Of a DNA stretch of 64,000 nucleotides, positions 4,032 to 60,815 are shown piece after piece. The DNA lies in the NCBI RefSeq assembly GCF_026210795.1, contig NC_089435.1, forward strand, positions 868,001 through 932,000. Reading direction: 5' to 3'. Position 1 is the first letter of the stretch, and each line of letters starts with the position of its first letter. The notes under the pieces were generated by a model. That model ran no database searches and had not been told where the DNA came from. It saw nothing but the letters and a program-made list of their open reading frames with translations. A program made the translations under genes and the position numbers. Source of the stretch: Rhizophagus irregularis (Eukaryota).

Positions 4032-6846
4032 TTTAAATTTTTAAAAGTAAACATTAAAACAGTAGAAAATTTGAAAAAGAAATATTCGGACATTTTTATA
4101 CTTTCTTAAGAGATACGGAAAATAATAAATCCTTTTTTTTTTGATGCAGCTATAAATACCGTGCAAACATTACTGTAACACCTAAGCACCTAAGATTATA
4201 GGGGTCGTTGTCACACATTATTCCTCGTTTATAAGGTAAAGTTTTCTTTAAGATGCATAAGTTCCGTATCCAATTAATTTCCTTTGAGTTGTAATATAAT
4301 CCCTTTAATGTCGAAAATATACCAGCAACGAGATGAATAAATAGAATAAATAAGTATTTTTTTTATTATCATTTTATGATGGAGCTTGTCAACCTCACTT
4401 TTTTAAATATGAATTTCAAACTGAAGTTGATCAAGTCTTACGTAAGATGGTTCGAGATTCAAATTTTTTAATCACATTATTTGAAAAATTGTATTAAACG
4501 TGGGGATTTCCGATCCAGATTTCTTCCAGCATCTGAAAGTTCTTTACGAGCGAAACCAATAAAGAAATAAAATAAAACCTCCATAAATGCGTAGTAGGTG
4601 GACATTGTACAACGGAACTGCGCATTGAAGTATCTCGGAAAGTCTAGTTGTCTTTGTAAGTTTAAAAAGAACATCGAGAATCCCCCAACAAGGGGAGAAG
4701 ATTGTGACTTTTCCTGGAGAGTTGTATTCCCGTTAAAATTCCAGGAGTTGCAACGGTAGATATAATTGCGGGAAACTTAGATATATCGAGAATTTTATGA
4801 AATTCTTTGTAAATGCTTGATATTCTTATGCTTTTTATGCTTTTATATCTGTTTTAATTTAGCACATTAATGATTCATTGTTAATGCAACTTTGGAAATT
4901 CATGATAATAATATTAAACAAGAAAAAGTCTTATCAACCTTTTGGAAATAAAAAAAATACATCCGTAATTTATTACTTGTCAAAGTACAATCGGAATTCT
5001 TAATGTCTGAATCAAATATTTAAATATTTAGATAATGACTAATTTTCATAGGGGAGAAGACCTTTGTAGTTTGTGATTATAAAAGGTGATCGGGCAAGAA
5101 TTTATTTTTAGAACTAAAATGAAAAATAATAGAATTCATAAATCAACTTTTTTTTCTCCTTTGTTTTCTCAATTTTCTTAGCTTTCTTGACTTTTTGGAC
5201 TGACATCTTCAACGCCCAAACCGGTTTCTTCAAGTTCAAGGAAGTCGCATCATGCTTTCAACATTCCTCTTCAAAGAATTTCCAAAACATTTCAGACATC
5301 ATGTCAAGGTCAAACACGTGACTATAACAGTCTAATAAACGCCTTACAAATGATGATATATGATTGAACAAAATCATAAGAGAATGATGTTATAAAGATG
5401 TTATAAACTTTTCTTCATTCTGAAGTGAAAGGATTATTTTTTAAAAATCGTCCATCTGAGTCTTATTGGGTTTAAATCATGTTCTTTGGCACCTTTCTTA
5501 TTTCTTTATTGTTGCGCCTCATCATTGAGATTATTACTGAGACCATTGGCGGTCACTTCCAGTTGTCTCCATCATCTGAATCAATATAATCTTTAATAAA
5601 TTTAAGTTGGTTAAATATTCTCTGAGATCCTATTATCCGTTATCCTTGTTCGTGATATCGATTTTTACATAGGTGATATCCATTATTATTGGTAGTTTTA
5701 TGTTAAGCTGAAACATGAATGTCGTGAACTTGTTTGTTTTGTGTTGGATATGCAAAAATTATCAAATGTTGATAATATTCGATTTGCACAAAATTTCCAT
5801 AAGAAATGCTACCTGGATCTTAAATGTCCACAAGAGGCAATCATAAGAAATTGAATTATTTGACATTTTGACTGATTAAAGGTTTTTTTCATCGATTCCA
5901 ATTCTCTATTATTTTTTATAAATAAAATAAAAAATATAAAGAATGATAAGAAAAGAAAGAAAAAAATAAAGAATTTAATAAAAAATTAAAAAATAAAAGA
6001 AAATAAATAGTAGAAATATCAAGAATTAAAAGAAAAGATAAAAGATTTTAATATTTTGTATTAGTTATTTACGGGGCGCATGAAAAGTAGGTTTGAAGGA
6101 GGGAAAAGAAATAGGTAAGGATATTAAGGTGACAAATTGCGTGACGACCGTATAATGATTTTTTTTTTTAGAAATAAAAAATAATGTTTTATTACACAAG
6201 GTTGACATGTGATTCCTATATTTTAACCAATATTGTATATATTAAAAAATAAACGTGTTTCACAGAATTTTGCTAAGTTAAATAATCATTACATCATATT
6301 TTTTTGCGCCAATTTAAAAATAAGTAGTATGTTTTGTAAAATTTATGCCGCGCCATCATTACTTGGTAAGGTTATGTATTTTATTCTTTTATCCTTTAAT
6401 TTTTTAATAGCAAAAGAAAGATTGCAAGTGAAATTATAGTGAATGCAATCAATGGTCAAATGTTTTTATTTGTAAAAGCTATGCTACATATTATAAATTA
6501 AATAATCAGGTATTAATTATGTACTTTGTCCTAATAATAAATTACATATTCAATAATAAAATAAATATTAACAATTATATATATACATATGATAATATGA
6601 TGATTTTTTTTTTTTTAAAAAAAAAAATAAAAAAAATAAAAAATGTTTAAATTCTATATAACAAAGGAATTTTTTTTTAAAAAAAAATTATTGAATTATT
6701 TCGCGAATTTTTTTCGTATGTTAGTCCATCAAAAATATTATGACAATTTTTGTCCAAAACTTCCGGTATCTGTATGCTTTTCATACAGACTATACTCGTT
6801 TTTTCAACAGGGAAATGATTTTATCAACGATGTAGTCAAATGATTA

Positions 6847-9741
6847 TTAGAGAGGAGGATCATCTAAAGAATTGCAGTTGTATCAGTAAGTGATGAAACA
6901 TGAATACAAATATATCTCCTGAATGATTTGGAAATAGAAAGAATATTAAAGTTCTTTACCATCTGGAAATTCGCGGTTATCATCATCATCTGCTGCAAAG
7001 TTAATAGCATGAGTATCAGAATAGAACATTATCGAACAAGAAAAAAATTTTCTTACCATCCAGAATTTCATGGTCATCATCATCTGTTGCAAAGTTAAAA
7101 TTGGCGTGAGTATTAAAGATAGAACTTGAATAAATAAGAAAAAAAATGTTACCGTCTGGAATTTCATAACCATCGTCATCTTTATGTTAAAATGATAAAA
7201 TAGGGTAAGTATCAGGATAGAGTATGGACAAGTAAGAAAAAAAGAATTGTATAAGTTTCATACCATCCGAAAGTTCCTTACTATCATCCGGAAGTTCTTT
7301 GCTAATGCCTATAAAGTAAAGTGCGTGAATGTCAGAACAGAGCACGAACAAATAAGAAAAAAGTATATAAAAATTTCTTACCATCCGGAGGTTCTTTGTT
7401 GTCGTTCAGAAGTTCTCTGCTATCATCCGGAAGTTCTTTGCTAATGACTGTAAAGTAAAAATGCGTGAATGTCAGAACGGAGCACGAACAAATTAAAAAA
7501 GTATATAAAATTTCTTACCATCCGGAGATTCTTTGTTATCATTCAAAAGTTCTTTGCTATCATCCAGAAGTTCTTTGCTAATGTCTGTAAAGTAAAGGTG
7601 CGTGAGTATTAGGACTGAGATGAATAATTAAGATGAATACAAAAGTTCATACCATTTGGAAGTTCTTTGCTAATGTCTGTAAAGTAAAAGTGCGTGAATG
7701 TCAGAACAGAGCACGAACAAATAAAAAAGTATATAAAAATTTCTTACCATCCGGAGATTCTTTGTTATCATTCAAAAGTTCTTTGCTATCATCCAGAAGT
7801 TCTTTGCTAATGTCTGTAAAGTAAAGGTTCGTGAGTATTAGGACTGAGATGAATAATTAAGATGAATGTGAAAGTTCATACTATCTGGAAGTTCTTTGCT
7901 AATGCCTGTAAAGTAAAAGCGCGTGAGTGGATTGAGCATGAAAAATTATTAAAAGAATGCAAAAGTTGTTTACCATCCGGAAGTTCTTTACTATCATCTT
8001 GAGATTCTTTGCTAATGTCTATATATAGTAAAATGCATGTCAGCATAGGACATAAGCAAAATAAGAAAAAAAATTGTAAAGATTCCTTACCGTCGGGACT
8101 ATCGTTATTATCTACAAATTAAAAAGATGAATGAATATAAATATAGAATAAACAAATAAATAAAAAAGTAGATTTCCATTACCATCTAAAAGTTCATCAT
8201 CAATATCTGCAAAGCAAAAACACGTTAGGTGTTAAGATGAAAATGAGAAAATAAGAAATACTGTATGTAGTATAAATTTTCTTACCTGGAAGTTCACGAT
8301 CTTGATCATCATCAACTTCTGCAAAAGTTAAAATTGGATGAGTTTCAATATAGGGCACGAACAAATAAGATATGATTTAAGAATTTACCTGCAGATGGTT
8401 CTTGCGGTTTAGGAGGTGGATTATATATTTTTGCACGATATCTTCTGTCCTCTTTGCTTTTTTCATCATCAGCTTCCTCAAATTGTTTCGCTTCCTCATC
8501 ATTGCGGCTCACCTCAGTAGGAAACCAACCAAGAACGGATTGCCATTCCATTATTTTTTCTTTAATATCTAGCGCAGTTGGCCGTTTTTGTGGATCACTA
8601 TTCCAACAATTTCTTATCAAAGTTGCATAACATTCAGGCATTTCTTTGGGAATGTTAGGTCTTCGACCTCTCTTGATCTGATCGGCAAGTGCTTCATCAT
8701 CGGCGAGATCTGCATAAGGTTTTTCACCAGTTCCCACTTCCCATAAGATCATTGCAAAGCTATAAATATCAGATGCTTCAGAGTATGGATTTTTATTTAA
8801 TACTTCAGGAGCAATGTAAGGTGTGACACCAATAATTTTTTCCGTTTTTTCTTCACTGGCTTGTTTAGATAACCCCAAGTCGGTAATTCGTGAGGGATAC
8901 AGAAGATCTTTGAACTGCAAAATATTTCCAGTATGGAGATCACGATGTGTCATACCAGTCACATGAATTATTTCTAAGCCCGCGACTATGTTTCGAAGAA
9001 TATCAAGTTTCCGACGCCAATATAATTTAGCTTTGTTATTTTGAAGATATGTTCGTAAATCACCATTTTCAGCGAATTCCATTACTATTGCATAATCTTT
9101 TGTATCCGGATTTTGAGTGATACCGAGATAGCTAATAAGATGACGACTAGCACATTTAAAATATGCTTCAAGCTGCAAATTGAATTGTTTAATAAGTTAA
9201 TTAAAAAAATGGTGGCATAATACAATTAATGACATTAATAACGTTGAAATATGTATATGATTATATAATGATATAATACCTCAGTGATAAAATTATCACT
9301 AATATTGTCCTTCATAGTTTTTATAACAACTTGCATTTTTCCTTGTCTATGCCATTGTTTTTTATTATGATTCCATCGTACAACATAACCATTTATCCAA
9401 GTTGCCAGAGATATTGTTCCAAAACCACCTTCAGCAAAATCTTTTTTGTCTATTTCAAGATCTTCATAGGGAATCCATTCAAGAAAAAGGATAGTGTTAA
9501 TAAGGGAAGGCCTAACGTATTTAACTAATTTGTCAATTTTTTCGTTTCCGCATGACCAATTTTCATATTCTTTTTGATATCGCTCTTGAATACAAGGTTG
9601 GCAAGGGAGTTTGTCTATTTTACACTGATTACATTTTGAACAGTTGTGCGGCATTGGCCTACGTAGAAAATCAAGATATGAAAAACAAGAACGTGCTTTG
9701 ACTCCTTTCTTTCCTATTGTGAAAGGATTTGTAAAATACAT
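6847..9741 (-). CDS. TKL protein kinase with intact motifs and a micro-exon-encoded acidic tail (~586 aa, 16 exons)
   Basis: Exons 9741-9280 and 9172-8389 carry CxxC, AEGGFG, VVIK, HRDLHTGN, DLG, APE and SDIYSF; then 13 micro-exons (8318-6960) and a last exon 6863-6847. Total 1761 nt, in frame. Confidence 0.85.
6960..8318 (-). repeat. Tandem exon-intron repeat array of 13 micro-exons, with a 21-nt internal unit (DSKELPD)
   Basis: Recurrent TTTACAG acceptors and G|GTAAG or G|GTATG donors; near-identical 229-bp duplication (exons at 7519/7748 and 7653/7882). Confidence 0.9.
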
Positions 9742-10805
9742 GTTTTTAAAATTAAATAAGACAAGAAGAGAAACGAAGAATTATTTTATAGGTTACCCAA
9801 TTTATAAATTCATTAACATACACAATTTGATAACAAATTCTTATTGGAAGGAAGAAATTTCTGAACATGCTACAAATAGGAGATTCCTTTTTTGGAATGG
9901 CATGATTGGGATGAATTGATCAACAAAAACAAATAATTCTTTATAAAGTTTCTTTATTTCTCAATTTCATTTTTAAGCTGAATAAGCACAATTGCCACAA
10001 AAAGTTTATAATTAATCATTTTCATTCGAATAATAAATAATAAATTTAGTTATTTTTTTTAGGATAAGGTGATTTATTTAATTATTTACGGAATCCAAGG
10101 CCGCTCATATTGCTATTATGTGTCACACTGTGAAGTTATCCGTTGCACAATTTAATTACAATGAAAAAAATTTGGCGTTTTAAGGAGAGAACATTCTGGG
10201 CAAAACCACAGAAATATCCAAATTTGTCAAATTGGCTTAAATTCTTTAAATTTTTGTTTATTTTTTTATTTACATACACGGAGTGAGTTTATGCGAGTGT
10301 TACAGAATTGCATGCATTGTTGGATTTGTTTGTAAATTAAATTAAATTAATTAAAAATATTTAGTGTTTACATTTTTTTATATAAATAGAATATATAATA
10401 AAGCCAAATCTTAAAAGAGTATTATTGGTTATTTACCAGCAAAATAATTTTTATTATATTTTCGATCGTTGAAATTATAAAAGATTATATATTATAATAA
10501 AATCTTTTTCATCAATTCTTTTTATTTGGTATAATGAAGACAAATTTAACAAGCAAATGATTATTACTATAATTATAATTCTTTATTATATAAAAAAAGG
10601 AAAAAGTTTCAGAATTTGTAGAATTTGTTTGGAAATGGAGATCAGCTCATCAGCATGTGTAACAAATTTATTTTTTCTAGAGAGTGGAACGGTATGAATG
10701 GATGCCGTGTTCCATTTAATAGATATCATATAAATGACTGAATAGATTTTAAAAATTATTTAATTATTTTATTTAATTATTATATTGTAAAAGAAAACAA
10801 TTATC

Positions 10806-13157
10806 ATGAAAGAAACATTTTCTAGTTTTACCGTTGATATGTCAGAGTGCGTTAAAGATCATGGAATAAATATTATACAAACAACCGCAGATATTATTCA
10901 AAATTTAGAACCACATTTTGATATAGCAATTAAAATAGCATCTTATATATTAGTTATTTATGATAAAGCTAAAACTAATAAAAAAATTTGTAGAGTATTT
11001 GCTGATAGAGTAGATTTAGCTTTAACATCAATAAAATATTTACAAAGGCATATTGATAAAAATATTGAAAAATTTCATGAAAAAAGTTATTTTGAAAGTT
11101 TTATGCATTTTATTGAAGTATTAGAACATATTAAAAATTTTGTTGAAGAAGTTTCTGAATTTAAAGGTTTTAAAAAATTTTTCGTTGCTAGTGTTGTTAA
11201 TCAACAACTTAATGAAATTAGAGATGATTTTGATAATTGTTATAAATCATTACAACTTGCTATTGCTATTGATGATGTTGTTAATCGTGAAAATGAAAAT
11301 GAAGAGATAAAAAGTGATTTAAGTCAATTAAAAGGTTTTTTTGAAGATATTAAACATAGTTTTAATATAACTGATCAAAAATTATCAATTATTACTGCAA
11401 AAATTGAAATGTTGGAAAAAAATTCTTCGATTTTGGATAAATCGAAACCGCCTACAATTGGTCCGGAAAATCTTATAGTACCAGAAGATATCATAGAACG
11501 TAATAGTGTTGTATTAAGAAAATATAGAAATTTGGATGTCGCTTGTAAGCCAACTAAATATTCAACTGACGATAATAATCCAGAATCAAAAAAAGCTGGT
11601 GCAACTTTAACGATTTGGAATGAATTAAGTGAATGTCCTTATATAATTAAATTTCTTGGAGTTTCAAATTTGGATATTTATAATGAAAATGTTACGGTTC
11701 TAGAATGGGCTGAATTTGGAGATTTAAAAAGTCTTTATGAGAGTAAGAATCTTAATTGGAAACTTAAATTAAGTATGGCGAGAGATGTTTTTCGTGGTCT
11801 TTGTTTCTTGAATCATATTCGTAAGTTCCATTTATTTTATTAATTGCCGGTATTTTACGTCCGTGAACTAATTTCATATGAATAATAGGTGTTTTACATC
11901 ATGATGTTAGATGTGAAAATATTTTGGTAAGTTCTTTGATTCATCAATATACTCTAATTACTCTATGTTGAATTTATATTTAATTTATATATTTTAAATA
12001 CTGTAGGTGGTTGAAGGATTTAAATGTAAAATAACAAATTTTACTTTAAGTCGTAAAACACAATATGTAACTTCCAAAGTACATGATGGTGAGAGTGTGA
12101 AACAAATGATGCGTTGGATGGCTCCTGAGAAACTTAAACCTTATCAAAAATCAAATCAAAATACGAAGATAGAACCATATACTTATGCATGTGAAATGTT
12201 TAGGTATGTCGAACGAATTGGCTAAAAAAGATTAAAAAAAATAAATCTTTTAAAATTCTTTCCTTTTTTTTTTTTTATAGTTTTGGAATGCTTCTTTGGG
12301 AACTTTCTTTTAATAGAGTACCATATAAAGATATGGAATATGAATATGATGAAATAGTTGAACATGTTATGAGTGGAAAACGAGAAACGTTAAACTTTGT
12401 AAATTGTCCACCTGATATAATTGATGGTTTCACCGAAATTATTACATCGGCATGGCAGCATGAAAATCGTAAACGTCCATCAACCCAAAAGGTCTCAAAA
12501 ATTCTTGAATCATTATATAAATCTCATGAAAATAATTTGTTAAATTTAAATGAAGAAACAAATTATGAACCTCAAAAATCTCAAGAAAGTTCTTTTACTA
12601 CCTCTACCATTTCTACCAATAATAACGCTATTGAAGTTGTTAATAAACATGTCATTGATCTTTTACCATTATCAGATGGTATTGAACATCATAATACAAA
12701 GGCTAAGAGAACAAAATCAAAACAAGATTATAAAATTTGTTGGGAATGTTTCAATGCACATGCAAATATTGGTAATAAAACGGCTATGTATTGGAAAGGT
12801 CTTTATTTATGGAAAGGTTTTGTTGAAAAGAATCAAATTGAAGCAAAAAAATTATTTAAAATTGCAGCTGACGCTGGAATGGCTGATGCTCAATTGGAAT
12901 ATGCTTTTGCTTATGATAGTAAGAATCTTAAAAATCCTGATTTACCTTTTGATAAAAAAGAATGTTGGAAATATTTAAATATGGCCGCTGAAAATAATAA
13001 TTCTATAGCATTATACCACGTAGGTATTACTTATTATAACGGAAAAATGGGAGTAAAACAAGATAAAGAAAAAGGTATTGGATATCTTAAACTTTCCGCT
13101 TTACAAGATAATCCTAAAGCAATTGAAACATTAGATAAACACGGAATTAATCTTTAA
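10806..13157 (+). CDS. MLKL-like N-terminal helical domain + pseudokinase + C-terminal Sel1 repeats (~708 aa)
   Basis: Exons 10806-11820, 11889-11926, 12007-12203 and 12281-13157 (2127 nt, in frame). N-terminus YDKAKTNKKICRVFADRV...LEHIKNFVEEVS..GFKKFF resembles MLKL_NTD; kinase fold VACK, HHDVRCENIL, ITNFTLSR (DFG changed to NFT), RWMAPE; Sel1 motifs AADAGMADAQ and AAENNNSIALYHVG. Confidence 0.85.
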
Positions 13158-13361: not shown

Positions 13362-14959
13362 TTATTGATTGTCCTTATCATCTTCGGGTTCTTCAAACTC
13401 TTTAGATTCTTCGAGTTCTTCAGGTTCCTCAGCTTCTTCAAGTTCTTCAAGTTCTTCAGATTCTTCTGGTTCTTCAGGTATAAAGAGACTAATACTTGCA
13501 GAGCCTAATAAAAAAGAAGAAAAAAACACGTTATCATCCATTAGATTCTTGAGTTTGAATAAAACAGACTAAACTATAAAGTTATTTACCTCCAGCAATT
13601 TCAGGTGTGATCTCATGACGTTTGAATTTCCGACTAGTATAAACAGGAGTCTGTGGAGTGATAGTTTGACTATATATAGCGCCGCTATAACTCTTGTCAT
13701 TCTTGTTTTTGGCGTCATCTGCTGCTTCAAATTGCGATGTTTCAGAATGTTCCCTACTACTAGAAGTTGGAAACCAACCAAGCACTAATAACCATTCATA
13801 GATCTTCTCTTTAATCTGACTGGCAGTTGGACGTTGTTTAGGATCATCATCCCAACACTGATTCACTAACGTGCTGAAACATTCTGGGATTTCACTAGCA
13901 GCTGTTTCTGGAATGATGGGACGCACACCATTATGAATATCCACGACAAGTGAAGTATCATGAGAACGATCAGCGAAAGGTCGACTACCACATGAAATTT
14001 CCCATAGAATCATGGCGAAACTGTATATGTCCGAAGCTTGGGTGTATGATTGACCTCGTAAAATTTCAGGCGCCATGTATGGTAAAGTACCTTGAATCTC
14101 ACCCGACGCGATATTTGGAGTATATAAACCAAGATCATTTATACGAGCATTTACAAAGACGTTTTTGACTTTGAGAATGTTGCCAGTGTGTAAATTGCGA
14201 TGAGTTATACCAGAATCATGAATGATTTCAAGGCCAGAAATTACATCTCTTATAAGTTCTAATTTGCGACGCCAGTAAAGCTTGAACTTGTTGGCTGCCA
14301 AAAATTGGCGGAGATCACCCGGGTCGGCATATTCCATTATAATTGAATAATCACTTGTAGCTGTTTCTTGTGAAATTCCATAGTAGGTTATATGATATTG
14401 ACTTGCACATTTGAAATATTCGTCAAGCTTTAAAATTGAAATATGTAATTTTTGTAATTAATTCATTTTCGGTTTGGTTCAAGTATAAATTGAAATAAAA
14501 AAATATTCTTACCCCGGCAACATAATCATCAAGTTTGCTCTGGGAATCTTTTAAAGTTTTGATAGCTACTCTTGTCTCACCAGTTCTTATCCAACGTTTT
14601 TCGTCATGACTCCATCTTACGTATTTTCCATCTAACCAAGTGGCTGTAGAAGTTGTTCCACCACCACCTTTTGTCAAATAAGTAACATCCTTCAAACGGT
14701 CAAAAGGTATCCATTGAAGAAAGGAAATATTATCATCTTCAGAATATCTGATATACTTAACGAGGTTGTCAAGTGTTTCATTCCCACTAGAAAAATCTTT
14801 TTGAGTTTTTTCATAATGATGCTCAAAGCATGACTTGCAAAATTTTTCGTTTAAACATTTATAACAAGTGTCACATTCATGGGGTGAAACCTTTATTCTC
14901 TTAGTTGTAGGTTCTTCACCCGAAAGTTTATGTTTGGAAGCAGAAGTAGTAGGTTCCAT
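13362..14959 (-). CDS. TKL pseudokinase, paralogue of the 6847-9741 kinase, with an (xEE)n acidic tail (~475 aa)
   Basis: Exons 14959-14513, 14427-13590 and 13504-13362 (1428 nt). Shares KLYWRRKL and WLLVLGWFPT with the neighbour; catalytic loop is HRNLHTGN. Confidence 0.85.
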
Positions 14960-17169
14960 GGTATAAAATTTGAGAATTGGGTAACTGAAAAAATTATGAT
15001 TTTATAATTTTGAAAATTTGGTTGAACAAATAGCTTTTTTTATAGGAATTGGAAGTATCGGAAATAACGGAAATAACGTACCGTAATTTTAATAAATTCG
15101 GAGATTTTGAAAGTGACCTAAATGAATATGTTAAACGAAACATGGAAGTTTTCAATGAAGCGTAGTTTTTTTTGGAAATATTTAAAAGAAAAAAAAAATT
15201 TTTTTTTCACTCTGTTTAAATTACCTTAATTAGACTTGAAGGAAATAAAAAAAGAAAAAGAAGAGAAAAAAGGAAAAAATGAGAAAGAAACCGTATATAT
15301 TCAAAAATTGCATGTTTATATGCTTCATTTTCCAGTGCATGAATTGAAACGTAACACGATGATCCAATGAAACCAATGAATTTAAGAAATTGATGTTCAA
15401 AATAACGACCTTATTTGGCTACTAGAGGGATTTTCCAATCAAAAGTGGAATATTTTCTTTTCCGGAATTTAGTTCCTTAATGATTTATACGCATGCAGTT
15501 TATTCTTGCATTATAACAAATTTGGTTTAATTGAAATAAAATAATGAAATAAATGATTGTTTCGCAATAATTAGTAAGGAAATAAATCAATGAAGTAAGA
15601 ATCGCTCAGATAAATGGCGCATAAAAATTAAAGAATCGTCTAAAAAGAAATATGAAAATAGAAGGCTCGCCTTAAAAAGAAAAAATAAAGATCGTCTGAA
15701 AAGAAAGAAAAGCTCTTGAGATGTTCTCAACAAAAATTAGCCGTCAAATTATCCGACCGAAAATTATATTTTATCATCATATTATAACAAAATATAATTA
15801 ATTACTTGGATATCTTTAGTTGAAAATATTTTTATTGATTATCTGATTATCTCTGTTATATCTGATTATCTCGTTATGAAGAACGCGTAAAACCGCGTAT
15901 AAATTATTACGCGAAAACAATTATTTATATATTTGGATAGATTGATCAATTGATCAGTAAGTACTGTAATGAGTCATTGATGTATTTTTTGTATATACTC
16001 ACTTTTACATGTCATGACTAATTTATGGAAAAGTTTGTATAACCGAAAAATATATAAAAATCCCTTATTTTTTTTTTGAAATTTCTTACTCTCTCTCTTT
16101 ATTAAAACCGAACTTTTTTTTTATAAACATATTTCAAAACAGGAGAAAGTAATACAAAAGGAGATGAAAATAGAATGGTTATCTTATTTTTTCGTCTTCT
16201 TTTTTAAATCTATCTTCTCTCTGTCTAGTTCTTCTCTTTATTAGGTCTTCTTTTAAGCTCTTTTTCCTTACATCTTCTTTTAGGTATGTAGGTTGGGAGT
16301 GTGGTTGGAAGTGCGGGTTTGTGTGTGAGTTGGGAGTGTGAAAGTGGGGTTTGTATGTGGGTTTGGGTGAGCGATGTTTTATCTTATTTTTTGTCTTCTT
16401 TTTTTAGGTCTATCTTCTCTGGTCAAGCCACAGGACATTAGATTGCGAAAAAAAGAAGCAATGAAATTTCATTAGATCTTACAGACAGACAAAAGCTCTT
16501 TACCAGTTTTCTAGATGTGTGTAAAATGGCTTAGGAGACTTTAAAAGAGGTGTGTATTTTTTTATTTGCAAAGTGAGTAACTTCCTAAGCTAAAATTAGA
16601 ACGGATAACTCATTGAGTCGGGGAGTTCACAAATTTTACTTAGGAGGGTACTGGATTTGTTTGTTTGGTTGGGTAAGGGTGAGCAAAGTGGGTAATTCCT
16701 ATGAAATTACCTGCTTTTTCTTTTTTATTTTATTTTTATTTTTATTTTTTTATTCCCTTTTTTTCTTCTTTTTTTATTTTTTTTATTTCTCTTGTTCACC
16801 TGATAATCAACTCAAGCAGACAACATCCTACTTTGTTATTGGTAAAGTCAGCTAATTCTAAAGGAGGAATTGGCTATGTCTTCTTTACCATTAAATAAAA
16901 ATTTAGCACATTATTAATAATTTCTTTTTTCTAATAACAGATAATAGGCAATGCAGAGATTTACAATCACTGGAGTGCAGTTTATTATATATTATAAATT
17001 GGATAACCAACTCTAACTGTAACTTTTCTACTACGAAATAAATAGAGGATAATGAAAAAAGTGCAGCATAACATTAACGATCACGTGAATATATATTTGT
17101 AGTTCAGGCCGGGAATTACAGGTTCGGCCTGAATTACCGCAACGCATTAAAATCATCATCTGCGTTAAA

Positions 17170-28991: not shown

Positions 28992-30534
28992 TAGAAAGTA
29001 AGTAACGGAAATTGGCAAAGTAACGTAAAGTCACATGATCTATTACGTTACTTCTCTTATATAAGGTACGGAACGTAAATTTTTTTGGTAAATACTTAAC
29101 GCTACTCCTTATATTTGCCACATAATCACGTCATGTTTATTTGTTTATCAAATCTCGTTTTCAATATAGGTTCATTTCCTCGGTTCCTTCCGGTTCTGCA
29201 ATTAAGGTTCAGTTGTTTTTTTATTTCATTTCAGTTCTAAAATTAATAAAGGTATTTTTTTTATTTTTTTTATTTTTTTTTATTTCGTTTTTATCTTATA
29301 TTTCGTTTCTTACTAACTTCATTTTTTTTTACTTTATGGTTTATTTTTACTTGGTTTCCTATCATTACCCAACCTCCTATCATGATCATTTTTTTATTTT
29401 TTGTCTCTCATCATTTTCACCTCATATTACTTCTCATTATTCGTCTCCCATTATTTCTATTACATCTTTTTATTTTCCATTATTTCTTTTTCTCTCCTGT
29501 TTACTTCCTATCATTTCTTTTTGTTTCTCATCACTTCCTTTCGTCTTCCATCACTCCTCTTTGTCTCCAATCACTTCTTTTCGTCTCCCATCTCTCCTTT
29601 TCGTCTCTCATCACTTCTTTTCGTCTCCCATCACTCCTCTTTATCTCCCATCACTTCTTTTCGTCTCCCATCACTCCTATCACTTCTTTTCGTTTCCAAT
29701 CACTCCTTTTCGTCTCCCATCATTTCTTTTTGTCTCTCATCACTTCTTTTCGTCTCCCATCTCTCCTTTTCGTCTTCCATCTCTCCTTTTCGTCTTCCAT
29801 CTCTCCTTTTCGTCTCTCATCACTTCTTTTCGTCTCCCATCTCTCCTCTTTGTCACCCATCATTTCTTTTCGTCTCTCATTACTCATCTTCGTCTCCCAT
29901 CACTCCTTTTTATCTCTCATCATGTTCTATTTCTCCTTTTTGTTTCCTATCACTTCTCATTGCTCTTTTTTACTCCCTTTCATCTTCTATTACTTTCCAT
30001 TACTCCATTGTTATTTCATTTTTTTATTAGCATCTTTTTCCTTGATCATTATAATTTACTTATCTTTTTTATTTATTGTTATTGTTTTTTTTATTTTGTA
30101 TCACTTCATTAAAAATAATTAAATAAACATGGTGATTATTTCTTTAAAATCTAAAACGTGTGACTTAAATTTTAATATTTACGAATAAAATTTCATTAAA
30201 TAAGATTATTTTGAATTAAATATGTTTGCAAAAAAAATTTTTTAAAAATATCTTCGCAATAAAATTTTAAGTTTAACCGATCAAAATTAGCTAAGTTAAA
30301 ATGATCAGATCAGCTATCAGCCGATTCTCTATATATTGTGCATCATGTGACAATTGTGGACTTCAAAAAAAACCCAGACGATGATCGATGATCGCCCAGG
30401 CAACCCTATATTATTTTCTGTACCTTACTTATATAAGGGGAATATAATTGACTTTACGCTCCGTGAGGGAGTAACCTAAAATAGTAATATTACGTTACTT
30501 ACTTAGCCAATTTCCGTTACTCACTTACTACCTG
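28992..30534. mobile_element. Non-autonomous DNA element with TIRs and an internal 21-bp minisatellite
   Basis: Inverted repeat AAGT(A/G)AGTAACGGAAATTGGC at 28996-29016 and 30506-30527; the right half recurs at 52983-53888; no TSD identified. Confidence 0.7.
29430..29960. repeat. 21-bp pyrimidine-rich minisatellite (cttttcgtctcccatcactcc)n
   Basis: More than 20 imperfect units; these explain the spurious F/S/L-rich ORFs in three frames. Confidence 0.9.
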
Positions 30535-31506: not shown

Positions 31507-34500
31507 ATGGAAACGAAATTTAGCAATTTAAATATCAAAAATTGTTTATATTGCAATAACCCTTTTACTAAAGAATTATGGTGTAAAGAATGCATTAATT
31601 CTTTAGAAAAATTAGCAGAAAATGGTAATAAAGAAGCAATGTTCAATTTAACCATACATTATGGAAATGGAATGGAAAAGAATTTAGAAAAAGCCTTTTA
31701 TTGGTATCAAAAAGCAGCAGAAAATGGTCTTAAAGATGCAATGCTTAATTTAGCCATACATTATGAAGGTGAAGAAGAAACAGAAATGAATTTTGAAAAA
31801 GCCTTTCATTGGCATCAAAAAGCAGCAGAAAAAGATCATATTAAAGCAATTATTAATTTGGCCATATTTTATAAAAATGGAAAACAAACAGAAAAGAATA
31901 GTGAAAAAGTCTTTTATTGTTATCTAAAAGTATTTACTTTAGCCCTACGTTATGAAAATGGAGAAGGAACAGTAAAGAATTTAGGAAAAGCCTATTATTG
32001 GTATCAAAAAGCAGTAGAAAATGGTAATGAAGAAACAATGCTTACTTTAGCCATGCGTTATGAAAATGGAGAAGGAACAGAAAAGAATTTAGATAAAGCC
32101 TTTTATTGGTATCAAAAAGCAGCAGAAAATAATTTTATTATTGCAATGGTGTATTTAGCCTTTTGTTATAAAAATGGAAAAGGAACAGAAAAGAATTTAG
32201 AAAAAACCTTTTATTGGTATCATAAAGTAGCAGAAAGGGGTATTAATGAAGTAATGCTTATTTTAGCTATACGTTATGAAAATGGAGAAGGAACAGAAAA
32301 AAATTTAGAAAAAGCCTTTTATTGGTATCAAAAAGCAGCAGAAAATGGTTGCACTGATACAATGTTTAATTTAGCCATATGTTATGAAAATGGAAAAGGA
32401 ACAGAAAAGAATTTAGAAAAAGCCTTCTATTGGTATCAAAAAGCAGCTGAAAATGGTATTAAAGAAGCAATGATCATTTTAGCCTTATTTTATGAAAATG
32501 GAGAAGGAACCGAAAAGAATTTTGAAAAAGCCTTTTATTGGTTTCAAAAAGCAGCAGAAAATGGCTTTATTATTGCAATGTCTATTTTAGCCATATATTA
32601 TATAATTGGAAAAGGAACAGAAAAAAATTTAGAAAAAGCCTTTTATTGGTATCAAAAAGCAGCAGAAAATGGTGTTAAAAAGGTAATGTTTAATGTGGTC
32701 AATAGATATTATAATGGAGAAGGAACAGAAACGAATTTCGAAAAAGCTTTTTATTGGTATCAAAAAGCAGCGGAAAATGGTGTTAAAGAAGCAATGATTA
32801 ATTTGGCCATATGTTATAAAAATGGAGAAGGAACTGAAAAAAATTTAGGAGAAGCCTTTTATTGGTATCAAAAAGCAGCAGAAAATGGTGTTAAAGAAGC
32901 AATGATTAATTTGGCCATATGTTATAAAAATGGAGAAGGAACTGAAAAGAATTTAGAAAAAGCCTTTCATTGGTTTCAAAAAGTAGCAGAAAATGGTATT
33001 AAAGAAGCAATGCTTATTTTAGCCTTATGTTATGAAAATGGAGAAGGAACAGAGAAGAATTTAGAAAAAGCCTTTTATTGGTTTCAAAAAGCAGCAGAAA
33101 ATGATTATACTGATGCAATGTTTAACTTAGCCATATGTTATGAAAATGGAGAAGGAACAGAAAAGAATTTAGAAAAAGCCTTTTATTGGTATCAAAAAGC
33201 AGCAGAAAATGGTATTAAAGAAGCAATGACTATTTTAGCCTTCTACTATGAAAATGGAAAAGGAACAGAAAAGAATTTAGAAAAAGCCTTTTATTGGTAC
33301 CAAAAAGCAGCAAAAAATGGTTTTAATATTGCAATGTCTATTTTAATTGTATATTATGAAATTGGAAAAGGAACAGAAAAGAATTTGGAAAAGGTCTTTT
33401 ATTGGTATCAAAAAGCAGCAGAATATGGTGATAGTGAAGCAATGTTTAATTTAGCCAATAGGTATTATAATATAGAAAGATCTGAAAAGAATTTAGAAAA
33501 AGCTTTTTATTGGTATCAAAAAGCGGCAGAAAATGGTGTTAAAGAAGCAATGTTTAGTTTGGCCATACGTTATAATAATGGAGAAGGAACAGAAGAGAAT
33601 TTAGATAAAGCCTTTTATTGGTATCAAAAAGCAGCAGAAAATGGTCACACTGATGCAATGTTTAGTTTGGCCATATGTTATAAAAATGGAAAAGGAACAG
33701 AAAAGAAATTAAATGAGGCTTTTTATTGGTATCTAAAAGCAGTGGAAAATGGTCACACTGTTGCAATGTTTAATTTAGCCATATGTTATAAAAATGGAAA
33801 TGGATCAGAAAAGAATATAGATAAAGCTTTTTATTGGTATCAAAAATCAGCAGAAAATAGTATTAAAGAAGCAATGTTTAGTTTAGCTATTTGTTATTAT
33901 AATGGAGAAGGAACAGAAAAGAATTTAGAAAAAGCCTTTTATTGGTATCAAAAAGCAGCAGAAAAAGATCATATTGAAGCAATGAATAATTTAGCCACAT
34001 GTTATGACAATGGAGAAGGAACAGAAAAGAATTTAGAAAAAGCTTTTTATTGGTATCAAAAAGTAGCAGAAAGTAATAAAGTGAACCCCAATACTAAAGT
34101 TGAATTATGTAATGAATGCAAACAACCATACACTGATTATCAGTGGTGTCAACAATGTAATGCTAAACAATTTCAACAAGATTTTTCAAAATGGACTAGT
34201 AAAAATAAGTTTATTGATAAATTTATTCGAGAAGCACAATCAAATGCTAAAAATAGTTATGAAATTTTGGAATGGATACCATATGATAAACTGTCAAGTA
34301 TTAATTATTATGATAAAGGAGGATTCAGTGAAATTCATAAAGCTATCTGGTTAGATGGACCTATTTTTAGTTGGAATTTTGACAAAAAACAATGGAATAG
34401 ATGTAATTTTCAAACAGGTTACGAGGTTATTCTTAAAACACTTAATAATTCATCAAATTTAAATAATAAATTTCTTGAGGAGGTATGTTATTTATATTAT

Positions 34501-35444
34501 TTAATATCAAATTTTATTTTCTCTTGCAAAAATTTAATAATTTATTATTATTTATATAGTGGAAATATCATTATAACTGTCAGAAAAAATCATTTTCAAA
34601 GTTTATTCAATTCTTTGGAATTACTCAAGATCCAAATAGTTTAAATTATATAGTAGTAATGAGTTATGCAAAAAAAGGAAGTTTGAGAAAATGCTTATCT
34701 GATATAATTAAGTTTAAGTGGCAAGACAAATTACAATTATTAAAAAAAATTATATTAGGACTTAAAGTAATCCATGAATCAAATTTAACTCATGGTGATT
34801 TTCATGATGGCAATATTTTAATGTCAGATAATCATAATGAATTATTTATTATTGATTTAGGATTATGTAAACCTATAAATGATTCACAGGATTCTGATAA
34901 TGAAATTTATGGAGTTTTACCTTATATGGCGCCTGAAATATTAAGATATAATCCCTATACTCCAGCAAGTGATATTTATAGTTTTTCAATGATAATGTGG
35001 GAATTTACATCAGGTATTCCCCCATTTAAATATGAAGCACATGATCATGATCTGATCTTGAGTATTTGTAAAGGAGAACGTCCTGAAATTATAAAAAATA
35101 CTCCAAAATGTTATGTGGATTTAATGAAAAAATGTTGGGATTCAAATCCTGCCAATAGACCAACTATAATAATGCTTGAGAATATTATATCTGAATGGAT
35201 TGAATGTATTAGTGATTATTATAGAATAAACAGGGATGGAAATTATATATTTGATGTACCTAATATTGATAATCAATTAAAAGATGTTATGTTGGAATTT
35301 GTTATAGCAAACAAATCTTTATCACAGGAACAAGTAAATCCTTCTATTACACAATCTCATCCACAAGCACATTATACAAGTCGCAAGCTTGCTGAAATTT
35401 TAGTTCAAGAGACTCAGGGTTTTGAATGTGTAATTGAAGATTAA
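31507..35444 (+). CDS. Sel1-repeat (~23 x 36 aa) TKL protein kinase (~1286 aa)
   Basis: Exons 31507-34482 and 34560-35444; 108-bp repeats EAMFNLAICYENGEGTEKNLEKAFYWYQKAAENG; kinase motifs KGGFS, VILK, HGDFHDGN, DLG and APE. Confidence 0.93.
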
Positions 35445-49570: not shown

Positions 49571-51025
49571 ATGGGAACTAAATATAGTAATTTTAATATT
49601 TCAGATAAAGATACTGATACAGCAAGCACTGCTAATTGTTTATATTGCAATAAACCTTTTATTGAAAAATTATGGTGCAAAGAATGTATTAACTCTCTAG
49701 AAAAATTAGCAGAAAATGGCGATAAAAAAGCAATGAATAATTTAGCCAATAGGTATTATAATGGAGAAGGAACAAAAAAGAATTTAGAAAAAGCCTTTTA
49801 TTGGTATCAAAAAGCAGCAGAAAATGGTGTTAAAGAAGGAATGCATAATTTAGCTATTTGTTATAATAATGGAAAAGGAACAGAAAAGAATTTAGAAAAA
49901 GCATTTCATTTGTATCAAAAAGCAGCAGAAAATGGTGTTATAAAATCAATGATGTATTTAGCTATTTGTTATTATAATGGAAAAGGAACAGTAAAGAATT
50001 TAGAAAAAGCCTTTCATTGGTTTCAAAAAGCAGCAGAAAATGGTATTAAAGAAGCAATGTTTATTTTAGCCGCATGTCATAAAATTGGAGAAGGAACAGA
50101 AAAGAATTTAGAAAAAGCCTTTTACTGGTATCAAAAAGCAGTGGAAAATGGTTATACTGATGCAATGTATAATTTGGCTGTTTGTTATGAAAATGGAGAA
50201 GGAATAGAAAAGAATTTAGAAAAGGCCTTTTACTGGTATCAAAAAGCATCAGAAAATGGTGTTAATAAAGAAGCTATGTTTAATTTAGCCACACTTTTTA
50301 AAAATGGAGAAGGAACAGTAAAGAATTTAGAAAAAGCCTTTTATTGGTATCAAAAAGCAGCAGAAAATGGTGATGAAAAAGCAATGTTTAATTTAGCCAT
50401 ATGTAATTATTATGGAGAAGGAACAGTAAAGAATTTAGAAAAAGCCTTTTACTGGTATCAAAAAGCAGCAGAAAATGGTATTAAGAAAGCAATGTCTATT
50501 TTAGCCATATGTTATAAAAATGGAGAAGGAACAGAAAAGAATTTAGAAAAAGCCTTTCATTGGTTTCAAAAAGCAGCAGAAAATGGTGTTAAAGAAGCCA
50601 TGTTTAATTTAGCCACACTTTTTAAAAATGGAGAAGGAACAGTAAAAAATTTAGAAAAAGCCTTTTATTGGTATCAAAAAGCTTCAGAAAATGGTGTTAA
50701 AGAAGCAATGTTTAATTTAGCCATTTGTTATGAAAATGAAAAGAATTTAGAAAAAGCCTTTTATTGGTATCAAAAGGCAGCAGAAAATGGTGTTAAAGAA
50801 GGAATGCATAATTTAGCTATCTGTTATTATAATGGGGAAGGAACAGAAAAGAATTTAGAAAAAGCCCTTTATTGGCATCAAAATGCAGTGAAAAATGGAA
50901 ATGGAAAAGCAATGTTTAATTTAGCTAGATATTATGAAGATGGCAAAGGAATAGAAAAGAATTCAGAAAAAGCCTTTTATTGGTATCAAAAAGCAGCAGA
51001 AAAGATTATATTTACACCATTATAA
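49571..51025 (+). CDS. Sel1-repeat protein (12 repeats), a truncated paralogue of 31507-35444 lacking the kinase domain
   Basis: Same N-terminus NCLYCNKPF..LWCKECINSLEKLAENG; homology breaks at ~51012 (AAEK|IIFTPL* versus AAEKDHIEAM). Confidence 0.82.
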   Translation: MGTKYSNFNISDKDTDTASTANCLYCNKPFIEKLWCKECINSLEKLAENGDKKAMNNLANRYYNGEGTKKNLEKAFYWYQKAAENGVKEGMHNLAICYNNGKGTEKNLEKAFHLYQKAAENGVIKSMMYLAICYYNGKGTVKNLEKAFHWFQKAAENGIKEAMFILAACHKIGEGTEKNLEKAFYWYQKAVENGYTDAMYNLAVCYENGEGIEKNLEKAFYWYQKASENGVNKEAMFNLATLFKNGEGTVKNLEKAFYWYQKAAENGDEKAMFNLAICNYYGEGTVKNLEKAFYWYQKAAENGIKKAMSILAICYKNGEGTEKNLEKAFHWFQKAAENGVKEAMFNLATLFKNGEGTVKNLEKAFYWYQKASENGVKEAMFNLAICYENEKNLEKAFYWYQKAAENGVKEGMHNLAICYYNGEGTEKNLEKALYWHQNAVKNGNGKAMFNLARYYEDGKGIEKNSEKAFYWYQKAAEKIIFTPL

Positions 51026-52982: not shown

Positions 52983-53888
52983 TTCGTCTCCCATCATTCC
53001 TTTTCGTCTCCCATCACTCCTCTTCGTCTTCCATCACTTCTCTTCGTCTCCAATTACTCCTCTTCGTCTCCCATCACTCCTTTTCATTTCCCATCACTCC
53101 TCTTCGTCTCTTACCATTTCTCTTTGTCTTACATTACTTCTCTTCGTTCCCAATCATTCCTCTTCGTCTCCCATCACTTCTTTTCGTCTCCCATTACTCC
53201 TCTTCGTCTCTAATCACTCCTTTTCATCTTTCCATCACCCCTTTTCGTCTCCCATCACCCCTCTTCCCATCACCCCCTTTTCATCTCTCATCACCCCTCT
53301 TCGTCTTCCCATCACTTCTTTTCGTCTATCATCACTCTTTTTCATCATCTATCATGTCCTATTTTTCCTTTTTGTTTCCTATCACTTCTCATTACTCTTT
53401 TTTACTCCCTTTCTTCTTCTATTATTTTCCATTACTCCATTGTTATTTCATTTTTTTATTAGCATCTTTCTCCTTGATCATTGTAATTTACTTATCTTTT
53501 TTATTTATTGTTATTGTTTTTTTATTTGTATCACTTCATTAAAAATAATACAGTGATTTTTTACTTTAAAATCAAAAATGTGGGACTTAAATTTTAATAT
53601 TTGCAAATAAAATTTCATTAAATAAGATTATTTTGAATAAATATATTTGCAAAAAAAATTTTTAAAAATATCTTTGCAATAAAATTTTAAGTTTAATGGA
53701 TCAAAAATTAGCCAAGAAAAAAATCAGCCATCAGTCGATTAATAAATTTACTTTATATATTGTACATCATGTGACATATTGAAAAAAACCCCAGATGATC
53801 CGTGCCTTATATAAGGGAGTAACGTAAATTGACCTAAAATAGTAATTTTACGTTACTTATTTAGCCAATTTCTGTTACTTACTTGCTA
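52983..53888. repeat. Second copy of the 21-bp minisatellite plus the right end of the 28992-30534 element
   Basis: Colinear similarity to 29430-30530. Confidence 0.85.
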
Positions 53889-60229: not shown

Positions 60230-60815
60230 AAAAATCACGATTTCTAGAAAAATTCTCGCGAATTTTTCTTGATACTGCTTATTTTAAAGTTTAAAGACCG
60301 ATTAGCAAACTGAAATCACGATTTCAAGAAAAATTCTCACGAATTTTTCTTGATACCGCTTATTTTTAAAGTTTAAATAAATTGAAATCACGATTTTTTA
60401 AGAAAAATTCTCGCAAATTTTTCTTGATGCTGCTTATTTTAAAGTTTAAAGACCGATTAGCAAACTGAAATCACGATTTCAAGAAAAATTCTCGCGAATT
60501 TTTCTTGATACCGCTTATTTTTAAAGTTTAAATAAATTGAAATCACGATTTTTTAAGAAAAATTCTCGTGAATTTTTCTTGATGCTGCTTATTTTAAAGT
60601 TTAAAGACCGATTAGCAAACTGAAATCACGATTTCAAGAAAAATTCTCGCGAATTTTTCTTGATACCGCTTATTTTTAAAGTTTAAATAAATTGAAATCA
60701 CGATTTTTTAAGAAAAATTCTTGCGAATTTTTCTTGATGCTGCTTATTTTAAAGTTTAAAGACCGATTAGTAAACTAAAATCACGATCACTAAGAAAAAT
60801 TCGCGAGAATTTCTT
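60230..60815. repeat. 155-bp tandem repeat (a dimer of palindrome-containing subunits)
   Basis: GACCG ends at 60300, 60455, 60610 and 60765; each subunit contains AAGAAAAATTC-TCGC-GAATTTTTCTT. Confidence 0.9.

What the first reader, a model, noticed from the sequence alone, without database searches (positions are those of the whole stretch)
6847..8389. Kinase tail assembled from 13 frame-symmetric micro-exons
Seen: after ...QEPSA G|GT the minus strand has GT-AG-bounded exons at 8318-8286 (33 nt), 8206-8183 (24), 8111-8091 (21), 8018-7974 (45), 7905-7882 (24), 7813-7748 (66), 7676-7653 (24), 7584-7519 (66), 7447-7382 (66), 7308-7264 (45), 7179-7153 (27), 7083-7057 (27) and 6989-6960 (30), then a 17-nt last exon (DDPPL*). 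All are multiples of 3, all are phase 1-1, none contains a stop, and the introns are 67-96 nt. The central exons are 24+21n nt, built from a DSKELPD heptad, and a 229-bp two-exon block is recently duplicated. Known: runs of symmetric micro-exons generate combinatorial isoforms in schistosome MEG genes. Inference: any subset of exons could be skipped in frame, tuning the length and charge of a ~166-aa acidic tail on a signalling kinase. The ORF track misses this structure entirely.
Basis: partly seen in the sequence, partly recalled or inferred. Interest (0 to 1): 0.86.

Follow-up and report, generated by a model that had tools for sequence, protein, structure and literature searches.

The report
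Micro-exon-built acidic tail on fungal kinase
A kinase gene of the plant-symbiotic fungus Rhizophagus irregularis splices 13 tiny exons into a long acidic tail that is predicted to be floppy and likely grew by copying small exon-plus-intron units; the RNA examined shows no clear exon skipping, so the tail's variety likely lies between strains rather than in mix-and-match splicing.

Summary
All 13 micro-exons are GT-AG-bounded, phase 1-1, multiples of 3 and stop-free. They are spliced in four RNA-derived runs. The spliced product equals public R. irregularis proteins GET58786.1 and XP_065993123.1 letter for letter, so the gene model is already annotated. One correction: the last micro-exon mostly uses an acceptor at 6992 (33 nt; 12 reads against 2).

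The combinatorial-splicing idea is not supported. No unambiguous skip junction was listed. The only skip-like row joins one of two identical 66-nt exons and cannot be told from normal splicing. Depth was modest, and the central exons are poorly constrained.

The introns resemble one another, so the shared phase is inherited from one duplicated module. Tail make-up differs among strains, paralogs and species, from about 16 to 172 residues. The tail (net charge -53) is predicted disordered; its function is untested.

It is not a MEG. It is a clean fungal case of tandem symmetric-exon duplication. The scan has noted similar arrays on other DNA.

The parts
9280..9741 (-). Exon 1 (ATG 9741; second ATG 9654): basic N-terminus, Cys cluster, kinase N-lobe
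   Evidence: RNA contigs begin at 9724-9751
9173..9279 (-). Intron 1, 107 nt, phase 0
   Evidence: joint 9172/9280, 10 raw reads and 3 of 3 contig runs
8389..9172 (-). Exon 2: rest of the kinase domain (Pfam PF07714, 144.5 bits) and C-terminal helices
8286..8318 (-). Micro-exon E3, 33 nt
   Evidence: joints with 25 and 19 raw reads
8183..8206 (-). Micro-exon E4, 24 nt
8091..8111 (-). Micro-exon E5, 21 nt
   Evidence: its letters lie between joint sides 8019/8178 in 6 raw reads and 3 of 3 contig runs (table 5c)
7974..8018 (-). Micro-exon E6, 45 nt (24+21)
7882..7905 (-). Micro-exon E7, 24 nt (unit a)
   Evidence: joints with 7 and 3 raw reads
7748..7813 (-). Micro-exon E8, 66 nt (unit A), identical to E10
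7653..7676 (-). Micro-exon E9, 24 nt (unit a'), 3 differences from E7; absent from 3 public isoform models
   Evidence: its private letters are seen spliced to a 66-nt exon in 3 raw reads and 3 of 3 contig runs (table 5c)
7519..7584 (-). Micro-exon E10, 66 nt (unit A)
7382..7447 (-). Micro-exon E11, 66 nt (unit C)
7264..7308 (-). Micro-exon E12, 45 nt (unit D)
   Evidence: joints with 3 and 4 raw reads
7153..7179 (-). Micro-exon E13, 27 nt
   Evidence: joints with 4 and 10 raw reads
7057..7083 (-). Micro-exon E14, 27 nt
   Evidence: joints with 10 and 14 raw reads
6960..6992 (-). Micro-exon E15, 33 nt (major acceptor 6992) or 30 nt (minor acceptor 6989): a one-residue tandem-acceptor variant
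   Evidence: 12 vs 2 raw reads; both forms are public proteins
6700..6863 (-). Last exon: 17 coding nt to the stop at 6847, then 3' UTR to about 6700
   Evidence: joint 6863/6960 in 12 raw reads; RNA contigs end at 6700-6724
7469..7926 (.). Recent tandem duplication of a 229-bp block (two exons with their introns), two copies
   Evidence: DNA contigs are consistent with two copies

Best explanation
This is a tyrosine-kinase-like protein kinase gene of Rhizophagus irregularis whose 13 spliced micro-exons encode a 172-173-residue acidic tail that is predicted to be disordered, likely arose by repeated tandem duplication of one phase-1 exon-plus-intron module, and is likely included constitutively in most transcripts. 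Step 1 (shown): all exons are spliced into mRNA, and the full product is a public protein. Step 2 (inferred from intron and exon likeness): a module of about 95 bp was copied by unequal crossover or slippage. Because it is phase 1-1, each copy kept the frame, and 21-nt slippage inside exons gave the 24+21n lengths. Step 3 (supported at modest depth): with 64-96-nt introns and strong donors, neighbouring sites pair, and the variants seen are a one-residue tandem acceptor and minor unspliced forms rather than skipping. Step 4 (inferred from protein models): tail length and make-up change in the genome, between strains, paralogs and species. Step 5 (inferred, untested, about even odds): the tail acts as a polyanionic flexible appendage that damps or steers the kinase through charge and keeps it soluble, so bulk acidity matters and exact unit number does not.
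For: Splicing: (runs X24, X6, X12, X13). Identity with GET58786.1 and XP_065993123.1. Intron homology: 54 of 91 tail-tail intron pairs have z>3 against 1 of 42 tail-control pairs, with 90-96% identity among the youngest introns. No skip joint listed except the ambiguous 7447/7748 row, whose reads had at most 49 letters on the short side while 67 are needed. If 2 unlisted skip reads existed per exon, inclusion would still be 0.86-0.92 for E3, E4, E14 and E15. The contig of the duplicated 66-nt exon is 2.07, 1.70 and 2.0 times as deep as the E9 row in the three contig runs, as expected for two A and one a' per transcript (a weak hint, as contig depth is crude). Disorder: FoldIndex -0.53, net charge -53; AlphaFold2 pLDDT 32-48 and no secondary structure after residue 404, against mostly 70-98 in the kinase. 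Germline variation: of 19 R. irregularis models parsed, 13 fall into three central layouts (5, 5 and 3), each on two or more contigs, and the second and third layouts go with a distinct kinase allele. A paralog has a one-unit tail (XP_065993648.1). The syntenic R. clarus orthologue has 121-128 acidic residues and two G. cerebriforme relatives 62-66. The neighbouring paralog has an acidic tail built differently, from 9-nt repeats in one exon, which hints that acidity rather than exon layout is the shared trait. Fungi show comparatively low exon skipping, and skipping goes with long flanking introns (PMC6142364).
Against: Only 217 raw reads from one RNA run (24% of it read) were laid. Central joints have 3-7 reads, so skipping of up to a quarter to a third of transcripts at E5-E7, E12 and E13 is not excluded. 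E8-E11 were not bounded this way, and 14 of 91 possible skip junctions need anchors over 8 nt. Contigs drop rare variants. Three of 19 R. irregularis models skip E9, and two R. clarus models on one contig differ by 7 residues in a way that fits a skipped phase-1 exon. The strain differences are read from protein models, not from DNA that I saw; the three DNA runs laid were picked for likeness to the window and all matched it. The last intron (6959-6864) is not detectably homologous to the others (z at most 2.3). The same paper notes that short exons are more often skipped. Nothing here tests the tail's function.
Confidence: 0.65

Rival explanations
1. Same origin and constitutive splicing, but the tail is a neutral by-product: in a repeat-rich genome a frame-preserving module accretes freely at a tolerant C-terminus and does nothing in particular.
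For: Tail length runs from about 16 residues (paralog P0147) to 172 with no fixed number. Relatives P0034 and P0161 have short, non-acidic ends. The ESM Atlas gave no convincing look-alike for the tail (best 0.75).
Against: All exon lengths stayed multiples of 3 and stop-free through many indels. Acidity (net charge per residue about -0.3 to -0.44) is kept in R. clarus and G. cerebriforme although the sequence turned over. Shared tail units differ at 3 of 164 residues between R. irregularis alleles, against 16 of 414 in the core, so the tail is not decaying faster.
Confidence: 0.2
2. MEG-like regulated combinatorial skipping: subsets of the micro-exons are skipped in particular stages or hosts, tuning tail length and charge.
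For: Every subset would keep the frame. Models CAB5182631.1, CAB4373457.1 and CAB5357023.1 lack E9, and R. clarus GES99231.1 lacks 7 residues present in GES99232.1. Conditions sampled were few and unknown to me.
Against: No unambiguous skip joint in 4 of 4 RNA-derived runs, although a minor 3-nt acceptor variant and low-depth unspliced contigs were retained. E9 shares its first 18 nt with E10, so short-anchor mapping can fake that skip. CAB5182627.1, the companion model of one of the skip isoforms, also drops 118 residues of the core where RNA contigs run unbroken in 3 of 3 runs. Introns are 64-96 nt, not the 0.1-5 kb of MEGs (PMC10526429).
Confidence: 0.1
3. The regulated switch is intron retention: retaining intron 2 (stop at 8345) or a later intron yields a kinase with no tail or a shorter one.
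For: Unspliced contigs at depth 3.6-6.7, against 13-42 for spliced ones, among the pieces shown for X6, X12 and X13. Retention is the commoner mode in nearly all eukaryotes surveyed (PMC6142364). Intron 7152-7084 is in frame and stop-free.
Against: Such contigs can be pre-mRNA or DNA. None of the pieces shown covers intron 2 (57 pieces were not shown). Most retentions would shift the frame or stop.
Confidence: 0.05

Closest known systems
Internal tandem duplication of symmetric exons that encode low-complexity, disordered protein segments (general mechanism; recalled, not from a paper read here)
   Same: One intron phase throughout, homologous introns, repeat unit matching the exon, disordered product, copy number varying among relatives.
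   Different: Here in a mucoromycete fungus with very short introns, and with a second level of 21-nt repeats inside the exons. My searches found no paper on such an array in Rhizophagus.
Schistosoma micro-exon genes (MEGs); passages of PMC4350168 and PMC10526429
   Same: A run of 10-20 very short exons, multiples of three.
   Different: MEGs are secreted, made mostly of micro-exons, have 0.1-5 kb introns and yield pools of splice variants. Here the micro-exons are 28% of the coding sequence of an intracellular kinase, introns are 64-96 nt, and skipping was not seen. The composite VAL-6 gene mentioned in PMC4350168 is the nearer architectural analogy.
Titin PEVK exon array (recalled; the lead came from earlier scan note e1-7396723)
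   Same: Many short symmetric exons encoding a charged, disordered segment attached to a larger protein.
   Different: PEVK exons are extensively skipped by tissue (recalled); no such skipping was found here.
Expanded tyrosine-kinase-like (TKL) family of R. irregularis (passage of PMC4219462)
   Same: Pfam PF07714/PF00069 domain with N-terminal Cys cluster; 248 of 3093 candidates at E<=1e-60, the 120 listed nearly all from Glomeromycota.
   Different: It belongs to a small subfamily found here only in Rhizophagus and G. cerebriforme among named hits. The last 80 residues are 42% D+E, against a median of 17.5% over 136 proteins compared.

Membership tests
Schistosome-type micro-exon gene (MEG) | Most of the coding region made of very small symmetric exons | tested here: not met
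   501 of 1761 coding nt (28%) lie in micro-exons
Schistosome-type micro-exon gene (MEG) | Signal peptide; secreted or membrane-anchored product | tested here: not met
   By inspection only, no predictor run: first 29 residues hold 6 K/R and no hydrophobic stretch; the product is a kinase
Schistosome-type micro-exon gene (MEG) | Long introns (0.1-5 kb) | tested here: not met
   64-96 nt
Schistosome-type micro-exon gene (MEG) | Pool of exon-skipping isoforms | tested here: inconclusive
   None seen in 4 runs; well bounded for E3, E4, E14, E15 and weakly for the central exons; a few public isoform models suggest single-exon skips
Tandem symmetric-exon duplication array | All exons symmetric with one intron phase | tested here: met
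   14 of 14 tail introns are phase 1
Tandem symmetric-exon duplication array | Flanking introns homologous to one another | tested here: met
   54 of 91 pairs z>3 against 1 of 42 control pairs; the last intron is the exception
Tandem symmetric-exon duplication array | Exons spliced into mRNA | tested here: met
Tandem symmetric-exon duplication array | Unit number differs among genomes | tested here: inconclusive
   Three layouts among protein models, tied to distinct alleles; not seen at DNA level, as the DNA runs laid all match the window
TKL-type protein kinase (PF07714/PF00069) | Domain score above the curated cut-off and catalytic motifs present | tested here: met
   144.5 and 124.9 bits; Gly loop, beta3 Lys, HRD, DLG in place of DFG, APE; kinase fold predicted
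TKL-type protein kinase (PF07714/PF00069) | Phosphotransfer activity and substrate class | not testable with these tools
   needs a biochemical assay

The most novel reading that the evidence does not exclude
The array is a working length-and-charge dial on a signalling kinase of a mycorrhizal fungus. It is set in two ways: by stage- or host-dependent skipping of the central micro-exons, which short reads mostly cannot resolve, and by exon copy-number alleles that would coexist among the nuclei of one mycelium. That would be a MEG-like diversifier on an intracellular fungal kinase.
Probability: 0.12. Interest if true: 0.7.

Novelty: new member of a known kind. Interest (0 to 1): 0.3.

Why it matters
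As it stands, it is a tidy, RNA-verified example of a disordered protein tail growing exon by exon in a fungus. Stages from one unit (paralog) to 13 units are visible among close relatives, with apparent strain-level turnover. That makes it a handy test locus for how exon arrays expand, for strain typing, and for benchmarking gene finders and read mappers: several public models read through its introns or drop exons. It would matter much more if long reads showed regulated skipping, because exon skipping is comparatively rare in fungi and the TKL expansion of mycorrhizal fungi has few functional handles.

Tried and rejected
No whole genome is held for this window, so a genome-wide count of such arrays was not possible; within the 64 kb this is the only one.

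A scan of metagenome contigs for orthologous loci gave 9 loci from 165 pattern matches. All were distant kinases (20-37% identity, or 23-residue matches) and none was orthologous, so exon structure in other species was not seen at DNA level.

A three-copy version of the 229-bp block was considered, because model EXX74251.1 has three 66-nt units and RNA contig depth looked high. It was rejected for the three DNA-like runs laid: repeat contig 1.7-2.1 times flank, inner-junction contig 1.1-1.25 times (contig depth is a crude measure). Run X1 was mostly unspliced, with only 2 joints, and said nothing on skipping.

The first AlphaFold2 job (6 sequences) failed, mean pLDDT 34.7; the second (52 sequences) worked. 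The ESM Atlas search with the tail gave one weak hit (0.75), not used.

SP7 effectors were considered as an in-species precedent for repeat-per-exon genes. The passages seen describe only a conserved intron before the first repeat, so this was dropped. PMC5100051 had nothing on exon duplication in the one passage found.

The joint 7447/7748 was rejected as evidence of skipping. Apparent variants at 8153 and 8759 sit on short stretches with loose ends and probably come from other loci. One of the three control introns was cut 2 nt too long; this does not change the result.

Full report
1. Observation. The minus strand of 6847-8389 holds the 13 exons as listed. Each is bounded by AG and GT, is a multiple of 3 long and has no stop. 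All 14 tail introns are phase 1 and 67-96 nt. Upstream lie exon 1 (9741-9280), a 107-nt phase-0 intron and exon 2 (9172-8389). Joined, they give 586 residues with a 172-residue tail holding 70 D+E and 17 K+R. A scan for chains of symmetric micro-exons found a chain of 14 here (13 real plus a spurious 12-nt piece), at most 3 elsewhere in the window, and 2-4 in 20 of 20 shuffled windows.

2. Identity. Exon 2 scores 144.5 bits against PF07714. The best relatives are R. irregularis proteins at 100% identity. The joined translation equals GET58786.1 (acceptor 6989) and XP_065993123.1 (acceptor 6992) exactly, so the structure is already in public annotation. Other public models of the same gene read through an intron or drop an exon. 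The gene sits two genes from a paralogous kinase, and locus tags show the same spacing in R. clarus (RclHR1_04400021 and _04400023).

3. Splicing. One raw poly(A) run (X24; 217 reads laid, 24% of the run read) and three contig runs (X6, X12, X13) were laid on 6500-9900. Raw-read counts per joint were 8318/8389 25, 8206/8286 19, 7904/7973 7, 7813/7882 3, 7447/7519 3, 7307/7381 3, 7179/7264 4, 7083/7153 10, 6992/7057 12, 6989/7057 2, 6863/6960 12 and 9172/9280 10. The 21-nt exon appears as letters between 8019 and 8178 (6 reads, 3 of 3 contig runs). The private letters of E9 appear joined to a 66-nt exon (3 reads, 3 of 3). So the read-through stop at 8345 is not the main end. The last micro-exon is mostly 33 nt, not 30.

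4. Skipping. Of 14 joint rows, one looks like a skip (7447/7748, 3 reads). E8 and E10 are identical, and 67 letters on the E8 side are needed to tell this from normal splicing; the reads had at most 49 and the contigs 30 on the shorter side. Rows need 3 reads to be listed. Allowing 2 unlisted skip reads gives inclusion of 0.92, 0.86, 0.86 and 0.87 for E3, E4, E14 and E15, but only 0.64-0.78 for E5, E6, E7, E12 and E13; E8-E11 were not bounded. The depth of the 66-nt contig over the E9 row was 2.07, 1.70 and 2.0, as expected if E9 is included (weak hint). Minor unspliced contigs (depth 3.6-6.7) were present among the pieces shown; 57 pieces were not shown. Against my reading: 3 of 19 R. irregularis models omit E9, and R. 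clarus GES99231.1 lacks 7 residues of GES99232.1. I give the first little weight, for two reasons. E9 and E10 share their first 18 nt. And CAB5182627.1, from the same contig and series as one skip model, omits 118 core residues where RNA contigs are unbroken. The R. clarus pair I could not test.

5. Origin. With splice ends stripped, 54 of 91 tail-intron pairs align at z>3 over shuffles, against 1 of 42 pairs with three control introns. Introns 7747-7677, 7518-7448 and 7381-7309 are 90-96% identical, and 7881-7814 and 7652-7585 are 94%. The last intron is unrelated. Repeat periods of 92, 137 and 229 bp match one- and two-exon modules. The shared phase is therefore one inherited trait, not 13 independent events. 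It allows skipping, but it is also simply what lets a module be duplicated without breaking the frame (established reasoning on symmetric exons; recalled).

6. Variation in the genome. Of 19 R. irregularis models parsed, 5 have the window's central layout (a A a A C D), 5 lack one a unit, 3 have a A A2 C D, 3 are the E9-less isoforms and 3 are odd (three A units; no C; truncated). Each main layout occurs on two or more contigs. The second and third go with a kinase allele that differs at 16 of 414 core residues, while shared tail units differ at 3 of 164. These are protein models; I saw no DNA of those strains. Three DNA-like runs close to the window fit two copies of the 229-bp block. A paralog (XP_065993648.1) ends in one unit, about 16 residues. 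R. clarus has 121-128 acidic residues and two G. cerebriforme relatives 62 and 66 with similar units. A tree of 22 kinase-domain rows, chosen from the closest hits plus four outgroups, puts these in one subfamily with the neighbour's clade as sister; branching inside is poorly supported.

7. The protein. Catalytic motifs are present. AlphaFold2 with 52 sequences folds the kinase (308 residues at pLDDT 70 or more) and leaves everything after residue 404 without structure at pLDDT 32-48. FoldIndex of the tail is -0.53. The neighbouring paralog has a 47-residue Glu-rich tail from 9-nt repeats in a single exon. Two routes to an acidic tail in neighbouring paralogs favour charge as the relevant trait. 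I infer a polyanionic appendage that damps or steers the kinase and aids solubility, at about even odds against neutral accretion; this is untested.

8. Known systems. MEGs are defined by mostly micro-exon coding regions, signal peptides, 0.1-5 kb introns and pools of splice variants (passages of PMC4350168, and PMC10526429). Three of these features are not met and the fourth was not seen. Fungi show comparatively low skipping, and skipped exons tend to be short with long flanking introns (PMC6142364, passages and first part of section 7). TKL genes are expanded in R. irregularis (passage of PMC4219462). PMC11333574 and PMC5100051 were seen in passages only and added nothing. Other papers were seen as search listings only.

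9. In print? Searches for microexon plus Rhizophagus (3 papers, none on this by title), for splicing terms with R. irregularis, for tandem exon duplication with fungi (1 paper, on animal transcription factors) and for six accession or locus-tag strings (0 papers) found no description of this array. The library lacks most subscription papers, and I read no supplements, where kinase tables may list the gene. Earlier scan notes report similar arrays in other eukaryotes and none for this sequence.

10. Verdict. A real, expressed, already annotated array; a new member of a known kind. The combinatorial mechanism that made the finding exciting is not supported at the depth available, though not excluded for the central exons. 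Interest 0.3.

Noticed in passing
window 13362-15046 (- strand): Neighbouring paralogous kinase (53% identical in exon 2) with a 47-residue Glu-rich tail built from 9-nt repeats inside one exon after a phase-1 intron (13589-13505): an acidic tail made by a different route.
   Followed up: partly
window 9655-9741 (- strand) and the first 30 residues of P0149, P0038, P0037: The N-terminal 29-30 residues are basic (5-6 K/R, 0-1 D/E) and precede a second Met. They look like mitochondrial transit peptides, most clearly in the neighbour; inference from composition only, no predictor run.
   Followed up: partly
protein P0002 residues 271-318 against P0005 and P0027: R. irregularis alleles differ at 16 of 414 core residues, 7 of them between 271 and 318 (P+1 loop to alphaG region). 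Possible diversifying selection or gene conversion with the paralog.
   Followed up: no
window 8407-8511 and 8885-9294: A minority of raw reads in X24 carry clustered differences, which suggests a second allele or the close paralog is expressed in that run.
   Followed up: no
window 10791-13157 (+ strand): Gene between the two kinases with MLKL N-terminal-like, kinase and Sel1 domains.
   Followed up: no
window 31607-34072 and 49701-51010: Long 108-bp tandem arrays (about 20 and 12 copies), probably Sel1 repeats by period and sequence (recalled); a kinase follows the first at about 34100-35200.
   Followed up: no
window 29506-29922 and 52983-53337; 60232-60812: Two arrays of a related 20-bp unit (21 and 18 copies), and an 81/155-bp tandem array; not examined.
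   Followed up: no
window 7084-7152 (- strand): This 69-nt intron is in frame and stop-free; an unspliced contig covers it in X13 and one public model (POG70901.1) keeps it, inserting 23 mostly hydrophobic residues.
   Followed up: partly
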